DNA from: Alphaproteobacteria bacterium
Lineage (GTDB): Bacteria > Pseudomonadota > Alphaproteobacteria > MPNO01 > UBA830
Assembly: GCA_964291215.2 (NCBI GenBank)
Contig: OZ219790.1
Coordinates: forward strand, 640,001-704,000
Direction: 5' to 3'
DNA length: 64,000 nt
How positions within the stretch are numbered: the stretch's first letter is position 1; the number at the start of each line of letters is the position of its first letter. The translations under genes were made by a program, and so were the position numbers. The notes below the pieces were generated by a model, which saw nothing but the letters and a program-made list of their open reading frames with translations, had not been told where the DNA came from and ran no database searches. Below are positions 9,551 through 64,000 of this stretch, in pieces.

Positions 9551-9889
9551 CCTGTCGTCCTTCCCGTTCAAGATCCGACCCCGGGTTCGGCCTCCCTGCC
9601 AATGCCGCCACGCATTTCTATACCGGCACTTTCGACAGTGTCTTCAGCCAGGGCGCGCGTACCCGCCTCAGGATTCCTATACTTGAAGGGTCGGCGGTTT
9701 ACAAGCCGACCGCCGCGTGATCGCCCTCTGAGGGTGATCGTCCGCGCTTCCGCACGGACAGCCGGGATTGCCGACAATCGCGATCCACCGGCACCACCCG
9801 ACAGGCCCTGCGGCCCGAATGGTCTGCCGACCGGACAGGTCCGGCAGGACAATTGTAACTCAAGTTGGCACTTTATGCGGCTTGGAATT

Positions 9890-11421
9890 GTATCTACTCA
9901 CCCCTAGTTGGGCTCTGATTGGCCGTAGTGCTCGTTGATGATGTCTGCGGCTTTTCCGTCGAGGGCGATCTGGGTGGCGACGATTGGGTTGTAGCCGAGT
10001 GCCGCCATGGAGGTGAGGTAGCTTGAGCTCCGGCACCATGCTTTTGCGTGGAGCGGAAGCATCCGGACACCTTGAGCTTTGCCATCCTGATCTTCTGTTC
10101 TCCGGCATTGTTGGTGAAGCTGACGTTGGGGTCGTCCGTGAAGCGCAGGTTTTCGTGTTTCACGAGACGTTCGTGCAGGTTGTGCGCGTTTGCTATGCGT
10201 TTTCCTTTCGGCGGCGGCGGGATGTCGGGCAGTTCCTTGGCGCCCTGATGGTGCGGTAGCGCTTGTGCACGGCTCGGCGTCGTTCAGGGTTTTGGATGCG
10301 CTCTTGTTGATCTTGTGGCAGACCTCGCGAAGCAGGCTCTTCATCAGTCGCGCGGTAGCCTCGACGACGAAGGTCAGTTCGCGCAGCAGGTGGCTGCCGC
10401 ACAACTGGTGGCTACACTGCCATGTACGAGGCCCAGGACGCCCTTGTAGCACGGGCCGATCTCTTGCCCGCGCTTGCGGTGCGGGAACTTGCACGTCCCG
10501 ACGACATGGAGCCACTTGCCGTTGATCCGAAATCATCGACATCGGGCGTTGCAGGAGGTGCGCCATGGCGGCCTCCTCCCATGACGCATCGTGAAAGCAT
10601 GGCCGAGGCCTCGGAGAGCTTGATGCCGGAGATCGCCTGCACGAGCGGCACGGCGCAGGGACAGCATCTGGGCGACCAGCAGGTTGATGACGAGGGCCTG
10701 GATGCCGTACTGCACGGGATGTTGTCGGGGAACCGGGCCTTGCACTTCGGGCATTCCTCGGCGCGGCGCTCGACGACCTCGAACACGATGTCGTGCGGCG
10801 CTCCCGATCGACGGGGTCGACGCCGCAGGCGTCGCAGGCCGCGACCGTCTCCTCGACGATGGTCTTGCGCAGGTTGTCGCCCATCTGCTGGTTCGGCTTC
10901 GGGCCGTTGCTCCCGGCACGCTCTTGTCCGTCTGTGACGGCGGCAGACCGGAGTTCCGGCTCGTGCGTAGTCTTCTCCAGAAGGACGACGATGAGGATGT
11001 CGAGCAGGATGACGAAGACGCGGATCACGGCCTCTTCCGCCACCTTGCCGGCAGCGCCGCGGTCCTGGCCGCTTCGAACTCCTCGCGCGCCGCCCGTCGC
11101 CATCACCCGGCCTCGACGGTCATGATCGTTGCGAGCATCGCCTGGCGCTCACCCGGCGGCATCTTCCGGTACTCCGCCTTGCGCTTCATCAGCGCGCCGC
11201 CTCCGAGATGCGTTTCCACATACAGATCATGCGGGGGCTGGAGCCCCGGAAGCAGCTGGCACAGCCCGCTCGTCGCCTTCGATCCAAAGTAGCCCACTGG
11301 CGGTCCCCGTCGTTCTCGATAACCACCACTAAACGAATCGGCCTGCAGTGTCAAATCTCCACGAAAACCCGTTCGTTGCTCTACCCCGACATCAAGCCGG
11401 AACCAGGGGGTGAGCAGTTAC
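9890..11421 (-). mobile_element. Decayed IS66-family element carrying a truncated methylase passenger
   Basis: IRs GTATCTACTCACCCC / GGGGTGAGCAGTTAC. 8-bp flanks ttggaatt / ctggaatt. Transposase motifs HQLCGSHLLREL and SFTNNAGEQKIRMAK..VSGCFR, frameshifted. Confidence 0.8.
11103..11297 (-). pseudogene. Internally deleted small DNA adenine methylase-like gene (N- and C-terminus fused in frame)
   Basis: GYFGSKATSGLCQ..PPHDLYVETHLGGGALMKRK resembles the N-terminus of D12-class methylases. Catalytic DPPY region absent. Stop overlaps the next ATG. Confidence 0.6.
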
Positions 11422-12135
11422 CTGGAATTTTTATCACGTTGCGCGATTTTTTGTCGGCCGATTTCAACATGGCACTACATTCCGTTGAATTCTGTCAGCT
11501 TGTGAGGTGGCTCCTCGTGCGGCGGGTTCGACACCAGCCGCCGAGGAGATTTCGGCGACCCCGGCGGTGCGCGTCCTGTCGGTTGACGATCAATGCACCT
11601 TGGCGCAGGCGCGTGGTGACCCTGGTTCAGCATGCTCTCGCGGATTGATGTCCGGCACTTGTGGATGCCCCGCGCAGGGATCGGATGCACCGCGGCGAGC
11701 ACGGCGATCAACAGGTAGGCGGCGATGCGAGCCGGATCGGGCGTAATCCGGGCTCGGATTTCAATGAACGGAAGGTGGCCTCGATATCCGTGTCCCGAGC
11801 ATCCATGTTTCCTGGCAAGGTTTTTGCGGGTGTCTGCGGTGATGTTTTCTGTGGTTGTCCACAAGCGGTGTGGGATTTGCCCTGCGAGCGAGGCGACATG
11901 AAGCTTGTGGTCCCGGCGGCGGGTTGCCGTCCATTGGTCACGTGAACGCGGCTACCTTGCCGTCCCCGGGCACGTGACCGTCCGGGTTCCAGGTGTCCCA
12001 AGGCGGTTCGATCTCCTCGATGTCGGCCTCGACGATGATCTGCAGACATTCTCCCCAAGTCGTGTCGTAGTAGGGAGACTGTCGATACAGTCCCGATCGC
12101 GCTCTCGGCAGGGGTGAGGGCCGTGTCTCCTTCGC

Positions 12136-13140
12136 TCACTCACCGTGCCGGTGCTTCGGTCGACCAGCAACGCTGCTGTCGCAGCAAGGTGTTCGCCAGA
12201 GCTTGCGCATCACGGCGACAATGGCGACTTTGTGGGCCTTGCCGGCGGTCTTGTGGCGTTCGAACACCAGATCCGCGTTGAAGCGTGCTGCCGAGGTCGC
12301 GGCCAGGAGATCACGTGGCCTCCGGCGCCCGCCTCGGATATGCCGAGCACCGTGGCCACTGTCGTTGGCCATCGGCGCCACCCCGATCAAGGCTGCCGAC
12401 GCTGCCGAGTTCGGGCATCCAACAAAGAAGGGCTGCGGCGGTCACTGGACCGGGGATCGAGGTCAGGGTACCTCTGCTCGGGATCACCGGCGATCACCGC
12501 TTTGATCGCCGCACCGGCAATGCGGTCATCGAGATCGGCCGCCGAAGCCCTTGTGACGGTCTCGCCTTCGCCATCCACCTCATCTGCCACTTGCCTCAAC
12601 TTGGTCCGCACGTCGACAAGCGCGGCGCGCGATACTAGGAGATCCCCCAGGCAGTTGAGGAAGGCTTCCTGAGGAGCCACAGGCTCGAGATCGCACCGTG
12701 CCGATCTTGGCGTCAACGCGGTTGGCCCAAAGCCTCGGCGAAGCCCTCAACGGGCAGGACAACCTCGAAGCCCCGGTCATGAAGACACTGGTGAACCTTG
12801 CGGTGATAGCGGCCTGTCGCCCACCACACGGGTTACCTCGAGGCTGCGAAGCCACGTGCCCGCCAGCTCGTGGCGTCGTTCGTAAAACGACGCCCCAGAT
12901 GTCCAGACTGGCCTTGCTGACCCCTGCTACTACCTTAACCATCGTCCCTTGTTCCTCGCCTTATGATGATACGGTTCAAACCCAAGCATCCATTCAGGAC
13001 GCAAGGGACGCCAAAGGAGGTTGCCACGCTCGGGAACGGCTCTATAAAGCCAAGGACGGAACGGCAATCTCCGCGGAGATCGTTTGATCCCCGCTCCCCT
13101 GTACGTTCTCACACAGGGGAGCGGAATCTCTTTGCAACCA
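12136..13140 (-). mobile_element. Decayed IS110-family element
   Basis: VAGVSKASLD (GIDVSK-like), IGVAPMANDSG, GKAHKVAIVAVMRKL. About 200-bp upstream non-coding end with hairpins. Boundaries approximate. Confidence 0.75.
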
Positions 13141-13354
13141 TAGCTCTCCCATAGTCGAGGTTATCCACATTTTCCCGCCCCCAACTGCTGTGGATGATTT
13201 CATCATCAAGGGGACAAAACCTAGTCATATAAGGACGGTCTCGATATCCCGGTCGCTGGTGCGCAGGCGCCCGCGTTGTCTTGTCGTCTGTGGCTGAAGC
13301 GCACGACCGTTGCGTTGGCGCCGGCCTTCTCGACGGTAATCTCGTAGTCCCGGG

Positions 13355-62809: not shown

Positions 62810-63043
62810 TCATCGCCGGTCCCCCTCGCCCGCGAGCGCCGGCAGCTGGACGCGCTCGCCGGCCTCCAGCGCCTCGATCGACGCCTTCGAAAGCCGCAGC
62901 AGTCCGCTTTGAATTGCGCCGTGCACCGCTGCCGCCAGTATCGAACTGCGGTGCACCTGGTAGGCTTCCGCGTGGCGGTCGATCTCATGCAGAAGCGACG
63001 TGTCGAGACAAACTCGAATCCGTTTCTTTCCATCTGGAATCAT
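62810..63043 (-). CDS. Small hypothetical protein, ribbon-helix-helix/CopG-like
   Basis: KRIRVCLDTSLLHEIDRHA....RSSIL pattern. Confidence 0.45.
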   Translation of the reverse strand: MIPDGKKRIRVCLDTSLLHEIDRHAEAYQVHRSSILAAAVHGAIQSGLLRLSKASIEALEAGERVQLPALAGEGDRR

Positions 63044-63090
63044 GTTCCGAATCTCCCTTCGTTGTATGGGCCACCATAACGGGAAGTAAT

Positions 63091-63270
63091 TCACCTTATC
63101 AACCCGCCCGCGTGCGGCTTACGCGGATACCGCGCACTGTGGAGCCGGCCGCCGCAATGCTGGCATCCCTCGAGGCGGCAGCGCTCGGCCTCGTCCGCAT
63201 CGACCTTCTCGAGAAACGCCCGGACATGGGCGCTGGAAAGCATGGAACCCGGAAAGGAATCGTGCGACAT
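63091..63270 (-). pseudogene. Fragment of a Cys-rich mobile-element accessory protein
   Basis: GCQHCGGRLHSARYPRKP motif. ORF stops after 59 aa. Confidence 0.4.
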
Positions 63271-63328
63271 TGACTTATCTCCTGTGGTTTTGTCATCGTG
63301 GAGACAAGCCCCTCAGCCGACTTTTTGC

Positions 63329-64000
63329 GATTACGCAACCTGATGTCTGGAAATTGTCGTGAAGCTCTCAGTCATCGAGCTGTTCCCATTTGATGTATGC
63401 CTTGGTTTCGGTTTCCCATTTTTCGTCGATGAGGACCGCGGTTGAGAGGCGCTCCAACGAGGCGAGGTTCGGAAAGCCCCTGACTTTGGAGGTGCGCCGC
63501 TTGAGCTCTTGCTGGATCGGCCGCTCAATGCCGTTCGAGGTTCGCATACGTTTGCGGTGAGCATCGGGCAAGGTGAAGACAGCGAGCCCCGCATTCTTTT
63601 CCAGCCAGGAAGCTTGGATGCTTGTCGCGGTAGCTGGCCACGAGGGCGCCCAGTTCAGCCTCGGCGGTTTGGAGTGAGGACGCATGGCTCCGAGCTGTTT
63701 TCCAATACGTTTCCTGATGTCGTTGTTCGGTGCACGGCGTTTTGCGCCAGGTGGAACTGGCAGCGCTGCCACATCGCCGCGCCCAGCACCGTGCCGCTTT
63801 CAGCCCGGCATGGTCATCCGAGACGATGAAGGTCATACCATGCAGGGCTAGCAAGCTTTCCAGGAAGGCTCTCCAATGGACCTCGGCCTCGGAGAGCGCC
63901 ACAGAGAGCCCCAGAACGTTCCTGCGCTCGTCAGCCCCTATTCCAATGGCCGAGAGTACTGCGACATCGCGCACAACGCCGTCATGGCGGGCTTTTTCGT
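63329..64000 (-). mobile_element. IS256-family element, copy C (runs off the window)
   Basis: IR GATTACGCAACCTGATGTCTGG at 63329. Homologous to copies A and B. Confidence 0.9.

What the first reader, a model, noticed from the sequence alone, without database searches (positions are those of the whole stretch)
9859..64000. Mobile DNA is eroded by deletions of a narrow 5-7 nt size class while host genes stay intact
Seen: aligning copies by eye gives IS256 indels ACGAGCG (7 nt, missing at B~61420 and A~13943), ACCATG (6, B~61530), GCAGA (5, B~61730 and C~63610), and six more of 6 nt missing only in A (GCATAC, TACGAA, CCCAAA, ATCCTA, GACGGC and one at the stop). ISAs1 24.4-24.7 kb versus 60.2-60.5 kb differs by 6, 7, 5 and 7 nt. 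That is 13 of 13 in the 5-7 nt range, many flanked by 1-3 nt microhomology, with only modest substitution divergence. IS66 copies add 6- and 7-nt cases, plus one 9-nt and one 1-nt exception. ISAzo13, IS30, IS110 and IS1634 motifs also lack 2-3 residues at many places. Known: neutral bacterial indels are usually dominated by 1-nt events, and MutS repairs loops of up to about 4 nt. Inference: either (a) a slippage-prone replisome with intact mismatch repair that lets only loops of 5 nt or more through, giving an unusual genome-erosion regime, or (b) an undescribed defence that cuts or edits repeated/mobile DNA and rejoins it with ~6-nt loss, like a deletion-type analogue of fungal RIP. No responsible gene is identifiable in this window.
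Basis: partly seen in the sequence, partly recalled or inferred. Interest (0 to 1): 0.85.

Follow-up and report, generated by a model that had tools for sequence, protein, structure and literature searches.

The report
Self-spreading six-base deletions erode transposons
This bacterium and one close relative lose DNA in a sharp 5-7-base size class across the genome, and in multi-copy transposons these deletions likely spread from copy to copy by biased recombination, which would make mobile DNA decay faster the more copies it has.

Summary
The 5-7 nt class is real: 809 of 1467 distinct indels between repeat copies (55%; 4 nt 26, 8 nt 56). The alleles also appear in contigs of public runs. It is not confined to mobile DNA. 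Against sister genome G001, single-copy DNA is shorter by 5-7 nt 96 times and longer 4 times, including 36 in-frame 6-mers in intact genes.

IS copies carry 25-65 times the load of non-coding single-copy DNA. Deletions private to one copy are mostly 1 nt, while shared ones are 78% 5-7 nt and reach up to 73 of 76 copies. Copies are mosaics, and load rises with copy number. Only biased conversion reproduced this in simulation.

Congener G002 shows a sharper version (5-6 nt, no microhomology need, deleted piece starting AT(C)); G004 and the G001 lineage do not.

Best reading: a motif-anchored nick-and-trim process makes the deletions genome-wide, and deletion-biased gene conversion drives them through repeats. 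mutS/L, dnaQ, recJ and xseAB have open frames; LigD, Argonaute, NucS and TopoIB were not found. The enzyme is unidentified. I found no such bacterial signature in ten literature searches.

The parts
9890..11421 (-). IS66-family element, about 178 overlapping copies; window copy is short at 33 sites of 5-7 nt (21.6 per kb). 8-bp target duplications. Other copies host the amplified group II intron.
   Evidence: (PF03050, E 7e-4, below cut-off)
11445..12100 (.).
   Evidence: no Pfam hit
12103..13120 (.).
   Evidence: no Pfam hit
13355..14580 (-). IS256 copy A; 18 short sites of 5-7 nt
   Evidence: PF00872
14591..15760 (.).
   Evidence: (joint 13351 to 14591)
16283..17426 (+). ISAzo13 element; 13 short sites of 5-7 nt, about 20 copies
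   Evidence: PF07592, E 2e-47
21045..22116 (.).
22690..24727 (.).
60147..60526. End fragment of the same element; carries the long allele at all four sites (0 short sites)
60759..62010 (+). IS256 copy B; 15 short sites of 5-7 nt
63326..64000 (-). IS256 copy C (runs off the window); 6 short sites of 5-7 nt
1470..1486 (.). Single-copy site 6 nt shorter than in G001, in frame within an open frame called by my crude gene caller
34760..34778 (.). Single-copy site 6 nt shorter than in G001, outside the frames called in G001 (a 13-nt one lies near 34322)

Best explanation
Deletions of 5-7 nt occur throughout this genome, likely made by a nick-and-trim event at weakly preferred sites, and in multi-copy elements they likely spread between copies by short-tract gene conversion that favours the short allele. 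Step 1, the source. Shown: the class exists in single-copy DNA, is lineage-specific, has a one-sided purine-pyrimidine-C start (AT(C) in G002, C|R-Y-C in G000) and needs no microhomology. Inferred: a nuclease nicks 5' of the motif, 5-7 nt are removed and the ends are joined across the gap; the enzyme is not identified. I put about 0.55 on a nuclease-set ruler against slippage. Step 2, the amplifier. Shown: copies are mosaics, 5-7 nt deletions sit at high derived frequency as one allele per site, and load rises with copy number. Inferred: in heteroduplex between copies, loops of 5 nt or more lie beyond the 1-4 nt range of mismatch repair and are resolved towards the short strand, or the long allele is the preferred cut site and is repaired from short copies. 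Result: a ratchet that erodes repeats in proportion to copy number, while selection filters host genes down to in-frame 6-mers.
For: Source. G000 is shorter than G001 by 5-7 nt 96 times and longer 4 times in 811 kb of single-copy alignment, while non-coding 1-nt indels are symmetric, 79 vs 69. Private IS deletions show the peak (16 of 52; 40 of 102). Motif: EM log-likelihood 393 vs 79-104 in four matched nulls; at least one D-Y end in 202 of 221 zero-microhomology events, about 135 expected; in G002 the first three deleted bases are A 0.63, T 0.69, C 0.57. Amplifier. In 76 IS256 copies 82-100% of marker pairs fail the four-gamete test beyond 30 bp. 26 of 35 deletions of 5-7 nt are in 4 or more copies (up to 73), against 0 of 7 nonsense changes (P=4e-4); the five deletions of 17-69 nt are in 1-2 copies. 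Over 27 tiles, 38% of 407 alleles exceed 50% frequency and 22% are singletons. 237 of 305 common deletions but 16 of 52 private ones are 5-7 nt. At 221 common sites 5076 copies carry the main allele and 112 an overlapping allele of another length. Adjacent deletions are linked (r2 0.27 under 15 bp vs 0.05) and carriers have lower flanking diversity (0.24 vs 0.31, P=0.007). At matched divergence, 5-7 nt indels per 100 substitutions rise from 4.6 (2 copies) to 24-29 (over 20 copies) while other sizes change little. Load is 7.8-20 per kb per copy in tiles of 18 or more copies vs 0.30 per kb in non-coding single-copy DNA. Simulated unbiased conversion leaves load at 0.9-1.0 times expectation with at most 7% of alleles above 50%; the five biased settings that fit give 11-17% singletons, 22-47% above 50% and 6-46 times the load. 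The 1-4 bp range of mismatch repair is from a passage of PMC8744996.
Against: No enzyme was found that is shared by G000 and G002 and missing from G001 and G004. The hitch-hiking signal is weak (84 vs 55 sites; deletion-SNP r2 0.15 under 15 bp vs about 0.08), which leaves room for recurrence at hot spots. The size threshold of the drive is not crisp: deletions of 2-4 nt have mean frequency 0.20-0.22 (n=31), vs 0.37-0.43 for 5-7 nt and 0.26-0.29 for 8-11 nt. Low-copy tiles include functional genes, which inflates the copy-number trend, and tiles are not independent. Some repeat tiles show no 5-7 nt gaps against G001 homologues, and two young families have none. In G000 microhomology is enriched, and 22 of 99 single-copy events have 5 nt or more, as slippage would give. 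Only 1.32 of about 5 Mb of G001 and IS-rich samples of G002 and G004 were examined; G003 gave no events.
Confidence: 0.6

Rival explanations
1. Slippage plus a mismatch-repair filter: the replisome slips, MutS removes loops up to 4 nt and longer loops survive. Drive in repeats would still be needed on top of it.
For: mutS, mutL and dnaQ have open frames; sharp lower edge at 5 nt; microhomology enriched in G000; single-copy non-coding sizes tail off gradually (5:7, 6:17, 7:15, 8:8, 9:4, 10:4).
Against: G002 has 152 of 273 events without microhomology and a steep upper edge (7 nt 21, 8 nt 1), with a one-sided AT(C) motif. The peak is at 6, not 5. No visible excess of 1-nt indels (148 per 13,224 non-coding substitutions, both lineages together). 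No replichore bias (37:42). DnaE and DnaQ carry no more lineage-specific changes at conserved sites than in G001 (4 vs 6, 1 vs 2).
Confidence: 0.17
2. Recurrent hot spots tied to recombination: the same deletion is made again and again at the same site whenever copies pair or are repaired, with no biased transfer. This is the nearest form of the reader's RIP-like option (b).
For: Deletions are less linked to background haplotypes than SNPs are to each other (r2 about 0.05-0.09 vs 0.12-0.17 at long range); hitch-hiking is weak; load depends on copy number; common alleles have both-end motif matches more often than single-copy ones (64 of 140 vs 11 of 50).
Against: One exact allele per site although the process yields 5, 6 or 7 nt (5076 vs 112 copies), including sites with no microhomology; neighbouring deletions travel together; private deletions in IS are rare (1.7 per 100 substitutions).
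Confidence: 0.12
3. An amplified group II intron is the source: its RNA pairs with 5-7 nt target-like sites (EBS1-IBS1), cuts the DNA, and reverse transcriptase or repair skips the paired bases; the short allele is then immune and spreads.
For: Group II introns are amplified in both genomes with the signature (about 60 copies in G000, 26 end-motif matches in G002); no reverse transcriptase was found in G004. Each genome's deletions score best with its own insertion-site profile (z 7.3 vs 5.2; 4.0 vs 2.2). G002 sites such as ATCTCA and ACCTCA resemble deleted pieces.
Against: The match peaks 1-2 nt off the predicted register and is negative (z -4.0) or weak (z 1.9) at it; the effect is about 1 bit. 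The G000 site consensus CGGYGG does not match the deleted C|RYC. G001 has 7 reverse-transcriptase matches, including a homologue of the G002 intron, yet lacks the signature.
Confidence: 0.07
4. A past burst of deletions before the IS families expanded, followed by unbiased homogenisation.
For: Would put old deletions at high frequency and leave recent substitutions as singletons.
Against: A burst would load single-copy neutral DNA equally, but non-coding DNA has 0.30 per kb over the whole branch vs 7.8-20 per kb in high-copy tiles; unbiased conversion cannot raise mean load; private 5-7 nt deletions still arise.
Confidence: 0.03
5. Assembly or polishing artefact.
For: None found. The three runs laid come from one study and may include the source sample.
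Against: Both alleles appear in contigs of public runs; host genes align almost without gaps; the filter to in-frame 6-mers in genes and a different motif in another assembly, G002, point to biology.
Confidence: 0.01

Closest known systems
Deletion-biased non-allelic gene conversion in Drosophila and primate paralogs (Assis and Kondrashov 2012, PMC3280953; abstract read)
   Same: Conversion between paralogs transfers deletions more often than insertions and shrinks neutral repeats together.
   Different: Eukaryotic, about 3.5-fold bias by the abstract, which names no narrow size class; here bacterial IS families with a 5-7 nt peak and a 25- to 65-fold load excess.
3n-deletion bias in bacterial pseudogenes (Danneels et al. 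2018, PMC6054270; parts 2-4 of 6 read)
   Same: Short deletions in decaying bacterial DNA, without Ku/LigD in most of their genomes, about 40% with microhomology.
   Different: Their sizes follow a power law with bumps at 3, 6, 9 and 12 nt (1 nt 131, 2 nt 44, 3 nt 45). Here 5 and 7 nt are as enriched as 6, while 3 and 9 are not, and there is a breakpoint motif and copy-to-copy spread.
Transformation asymmetry and chromosomal curing (Apagyi et al. 2018, PMC5850275; abstract read)
   Same: Bacterial homologous recombination transfers deletions more efficiently than insertions, at the cost of accessory DNA.
   Different: Concerns kilobase islands and DNA taken from other cells; here 5-7 nt heterologies between copies in one genome.
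Repeat-induced point mutation (RIP) of fungi (recalled, no paper read)
   Same: Repeated DNA decays faster than single-copy DNA and transposons are inactivated.
   Different: RIP makes many independent C-to-T changes only in duplicated DNA by a dedicated methyltransferase-like protein. Here the events are deletions, arise in single-copy DNA too, and are few alleles at high frequency.
Topoisomerase 1 / ribonucleotide-linked 2-5 bp deletion signature of eukaryotes (recalled, no paper read)
   Same: A short size class set by a nick-and-rejoin enzyme, with a breakpoint motif.
   Different: Different size and motif; no type IB topoisomerase was found in G000-G004.

Membership tests
Deletion-biased non-allelic gene conversion | Paralogous copies exchange sequence in short tracts | tested here: met
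   82-100% four-gamete failure beyond 30 bp in IS256; linkage decays within 15-30 bp over the tiles with 20 or more copies
Deletion-biased non-allelic gene conversion | Deletion alleles rise above neutral expectation while insertions do not | tested here: met
   38% of 5-7 nt deletions above 50% vs 8% of insertions; only biased simulations fit
Deletion-biased non-allelic gene conversion | Direction of single conversion events seen on a phylogeny or in an assay | not testable with these tools
   Needs orthologous IS copies in several strains or a cross
RIP-like homology-directed mutagenesis | Mutations confined to repeated DNA | tested here: not met
   96 vs 4 in single-copy DNA
RIP-like homology-directed mutagenesis | Many independent new mutations per copy | tested here: not met
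   16 private 5-7 nt deletions per 951 private substitutions; one allele per site
RIP-like homology-directed mutagenesis | Damage increases with duplication | tested here: met
   4.6 to 24-29 per 100 substitutions with copy number, with a selection confound in low-copy tiles
3n-deletion bias / alternative end-joining | Power-law sizes with excess at multiples of 3 | tested here: not met
   3 nt 37, 9 nt 32 vs 5 nt 189, 7 nt 231
3n-deletion bias / alternative end-joining | Microhomology at junctions | tested here: inconclusive
   Enriched in G000; 152 of 273 events without any in G002
Ku/LigD non-homologous end-joining | ATP-dependent ligase LigD | tested here: not met
   PF01068 in 0 of 5 genomes
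Ku/LigD non-homologous end-joining | Ku protein | not tested
Slippage with mismatch-repair filter | MutS and MutL present | tested here: met
   Open frames; activity not testable
Slippage with mismatch-repair filter | Repeat-dependent junctions and counts that fall steadily from 5 nt upward | tested here: not met
   Peak at 6 with a steep upper edge; mostly no microhomology in G002
Group II intron target cleavage | Deleted piece ends at the IBS1 register | tested here: not met
   z -4.0 (G000) and 1.9 (G002) at offset 0; peaks at -1/-2
Transposase footprint | An IS family with 5-7 bp target duplications | tested here: inconclusive
   Families with clear duplications gave 8-10 bp; ends of several eroded families were not resolved

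The most novel reading that the evidence does not exclude
An undescribed, patchily inherited bacterial enzyme or pathway nicks DNA at short purine-pyrimidine motifs and rejoins it 5-7 nt shorter. Because the shortened allele wins in recombination between copies, the pair acts as a self-tuning, copy-number-sensing brake on transposons and introns: a deletion-drive counterpart of fungal RIP that needs no recognition of foreign DNA.
Probability: 0.3. Interest if true: 0.92.

Novelty: new variant of a known kind. Interest (0 to 1): 0.8.

Why it matters
Bacterial deletion bias is usually treated as a smooth mutational tendency. Here it has a fixed ruler and a sequence motif that differ between congeners, and it is present in two and absent in two of four genomes with data. 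That points to a findable gene and makes the source of deletion bias testable by comparing genomes. The frequency data also suggest that gene conversion between IS copies can act as a drive that disables a whole family, faster the larger it grows. This bears on why IS blooms die out and how genomes shrink, and it warns that indel spectra read from repeats need not reflect mutation.

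Tried and rejected
Candidate enzymes sought in G000-G004 and not found in any: LigD, type IB topoisomerase, Argonaute Piwi domain, RecT (72), UvdE (110), endonuclease V (112). NucS: none in G000 or G001, two matches in G002. DndC: G002 and G004 only. AEP-TOTE: one 35-residue match in G000 only, not followed up. Cas1 and tyrosine recombinases: in all five, so not discriminating. dnaE2: missing in both G000 and G001. By tblastn with E. coli proteins, G000 has open-frame mutS, dnaE, dnaQ, dnaN, dnaX, recA, recF, recR, recJ, recQ, recG, ruvABC, radA, priA, uvrABCD, xseA, rnhA, rnhB, dinB, mutM, mutY, xthA, ligA, topA and gyrB; sbcC, sbcD, recO, ung, recX and rayT gave no hit at that sensitivity. 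polA, xseB and UDG families are present in all five.

Primase/Okazaki-primer skipping: single-copy events split 37:42 by replichore; private events gave 26:11 with the G002 profile (P=0.02; that profile on the private set gave the only low values among 18 related settings); known DnaG starts are purine-purine (passages of PMC2978363). Hairpin-loop excision: no stem enrichment. Codon-phase bias: phases mixed. A single restriction or methylation motif: no dominant k-mer. UV-type or methylation-type substitution context: none. CRISPR self-targeting: 0 of 96 spacers match outside the array. Transposase footprints: no family with 5-7 bp duplications among those resolved.

A check of single-copy deletion sites against the public runs was not obtained, so those sites rest on the G000 and G001 assemblies alone. 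Earlier scan notes held nothing on this (63, 64, 133, 134). Ten literature searches found no report of a 5-7 nt-peaked deletion signature in bacteria; the library lacks most subscription papers and no supplements were read.

Full report
Setting. The window is G000:C1:640001-704000 of a 6.15-Mb, two-contig assembly. A permuted tmRNA and RecA neighbours at about 88-89% identity named Rhodospirillaceae and MarineAlpha11 place it among uncultured alphaproteobacteria. Habitat was not determined. About 27% of the genome is multi-copy DNA.

The observation. Over 185 repeat seeds, 809 of 1467 de-duplicated indels are 5-7 nt (189/389/231), against 26 of 4 nt, 56 of 8 nt and 257 of 1 nt; a small second hump at 11-14 nt fits adjacent pairs. 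They are deletions. The longest-allele IS256 reference matches a Sulfitobacter dubius IS256 transposase (WP_317406366.1) in two HSPs with two gap positions each, and in one 544-column alignment to a G001 homologue all 15 gaps lie in the G000 copy. Contigs from three public runs of one study carry both alleles at several sites. Each high-copy window element is short at 9-22 such sites per kb, except the 60.1-kb fragment, which has none.

Not confined to mobile DNA. I fetched 1.32 Mb of the roughly 5-Mb sister genome G001; 811 kb aligned to single-copy G000 DNA at about 7% divergence. G000 is shorter by 5-7 nt 96 times and longer 4 times. Non-coding DNA has 39 in 131 kb (7/17/15), disrupted genes 19 in 93 kb, and 548 intact genes 38 in 587 kb, 36 of them in-frame 6-mers. 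Non-coding 1-nt indels are symmetric (79 vs 69). Host genes are therefore hit and filtered by selection, and targeting of repeats cannot be the source. Gene calls came from a crude ORF caller, and ORFs with under 300 aligned bases were left out of the gene counts.

Anatomy of the events. Microhomology is enriched in G000 but absent in 221 of 809 events (about 414 expected). Breakpoints carry a weak motif: EM log-likelihood 393 vs 79-104 in matched nulls, and at least one D-Y end in 202 of 221 events. No hairpin or single k-mer explains them. Congener G002 (complete, 6.1 Mb; about 0.3 Mb of IS-rich stretches sampled) shows a sharper version: 117/131/21 of 376 indels are 5/6/7 nt, with 7 of 4 nt and 1 of 8 nt; 152 of 273 events of 5-9 nt lack microhomology. 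The deleted piece begins A 0.63, T 0.69, C 0.57 on one side only, and polarity is again deletion (51 vs 0 against a G001 homologue). G004, also IS-rich, has an ordinary spectrum: 27 of 63 indels are 1 nt and 7 are 5-7 nt. G003 gave no events. A fixed length, a one-sided motif and no need for homology suggest a nick with a measured trim rather than slippage. That is inference.

Why IS copies are hit so much harder. Tiles with 18 or more copies carry 7.8-20 derived 5-7 nt deletions per kb per copy, against 0.30 per kb (95% interval 0.21-0.41) in non-coding single-copy DNA over a branch that is probably longer. The excess lies in allele frequency, not in new events. Private deletions in 27 tiles are 23 of 1 nt and 16 of 5-7 nt out of 52, against 951 private substitutions; common ones are 237 of 305 at 5-7 nt. 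In 76 near-full IS256 copies, 26 of 35 such deletions are in 4 or more copies (up to 73), whereas all 7 nonsense changes are in at most 3 and the five 17-69 nt deletions in at most 2. Three of the 35 lie in an ambiguous poly-C run and were kept. Substitution frequencies are folded to the majority base, so only their singleton share (55%) is comparable.

Copies are mosaics, with 82-100% four-gamete failure beyond 30 bp. Each common site has essentially one allele (5076 vs 112 copies), adjacent deletions are linked (r2 0.27 vs 0.05), and carriers have slightly lower flanking diversity (0.24 vs 0.31, P=0.007). At matched substitution divergence the 5-7 nt share rises from 4.6 per 100 substitutions at two copies to 24-29 above twenty (Spearman 0.54); tiles are not independent and low-copy tiles include functional genes. 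In a simple copy-population simulation, unbiased conversion left load at expectation. Five of the eight biased settings gave 11-17% singletons, 22-47% above one half and 6-46 times the load, near the observed 22% and 38%.

Mechanism. Most likely two steps. A genome-wide source makes motif-anchored 5-7 nt deletions at roughly 1-3 per 100 substitutions. Short-tract conversion between copies then favours the short allele. Mismatch repair handles loops of 1-4 bp (passage of PMC8744996), so longer loops would escape it, and SNPs are less tightly carried along with deletions than deletions are with each other. What sets the direction is untested: loop cleavage, an asymmetry of strand exchange, or preferential cutting of the long allele. 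Against a crisp threshold, 2-4 nt deletions are also somewhat raised in frequency.

Search for the enzyme. The replication and repair genes tested have open frames, and DnaE and DnaQ show no excess of lineage-specific change. LigD, TopoIB, Piwi, RecT, UvdE and EndoV were not found in any of five genomes; NucS, DndC, AEP-TOTE, Cas1 and tyrosine recombinases do not track the signature. Ku was not tested. There is no replichore bias in single-copy events and no IS family with 5-7 bp duplications among those resolved. Group II introns are amplified in G000 and G002 and no reverse transcriptase was found in G004, but G001 has them too, and the deleted pieces do not sit in the predicted register. 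This stays a minor lead.

Comparison with what is known. The amplifier works like deletion-biased non-allelic gene conversion in flies and primates (PMC3280953, abstract) and like transformation asymmetry (PMC5850275, abstract); single conversion events could not be observed here. The size class differs from the 3n bias on a power law in bacterial pseudogenes (PMC6054270, parts 2-4 of 6). It fails RIP's defining tests (recalled) of confinement to repeats and many independent hits, though the outcome is RIP-like. PMC13663708 was seen in outline only and not used. Ten searches of the held library found no bacterial 5-7 nt signature; subscription papers are mostly outside it.

Verdict. Real, genome-wide, patchy within the genus, and amplified in repeats, most likely by conversion drive (0.6 for the two-step model as a whole). 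New variant of a known kind, with an unexplained source that could prove categorically new (0.3). Interest 0.8.

Noticed in passing
window 14496-14531 and 60808-60843: IS256 carries a perfect 36-bp palindrome with G6/C6 runs; across copies these runs vary by several bases, up to about 10 extra, or one arm is lost.
   Followed up: partly
G000:C1:574173-581180 (outside the window): CRISPR array of 97 repeats beside a cas1; the repeat looks like type I-G/I-U (recalled). None of 96 spacers matches the genome outside the array.
   Followed up: partly
L339:748-2582; insertion site at window about 10130: A group II intron family (Rfam RF02005, RF00029) of about 60 copies inserts into the IS66-family element and at sites ending in GGYGG; it is itself eroded by 5-7 nt deletions.
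   Followed up: yes
G000 GC skew; C2 about 609 kb and C1 about 197 kb: Skew in non-repeat DNA still defines two clean replichores despite 27% repeats; the origin is far from dnaA (C1 2.22 Mb).
   Followed up: partly
G000 and G001, genome-wide: 61 and 56 tyrosine-recombinase matches, many in adjacent triplets resembling RIT elements (label recalled), against 7-8 in G003 and G004.
   Followed up: no
window 17776-20514: Long repetitive open frames (912 aa on -, 805 aa on +) with internal repeats and no Pfam hit for the 912-aa frame; parts are multi-copy.
   Followed up: no
window 15755-16204: Mrr-like restriction endonuclease fragment (PF13156, E 7e-26) wedged between IS elements.
   Followed up: no
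L404 (G000:C2 about 1,964,100): 35-residue AEP-TOTE primase-domain match found only in G000 among five congeners.
   Followed up: no
G000, many sites: Short 180-190 bp elements with 8-10 bp target duplications, probably non-autonomous IS derivatives.
   Followed up: no
G002 and G004: DndC (phosphorothioation) matches in G002 and G004 but not in G000, G001 or G003.
   Followed up: no
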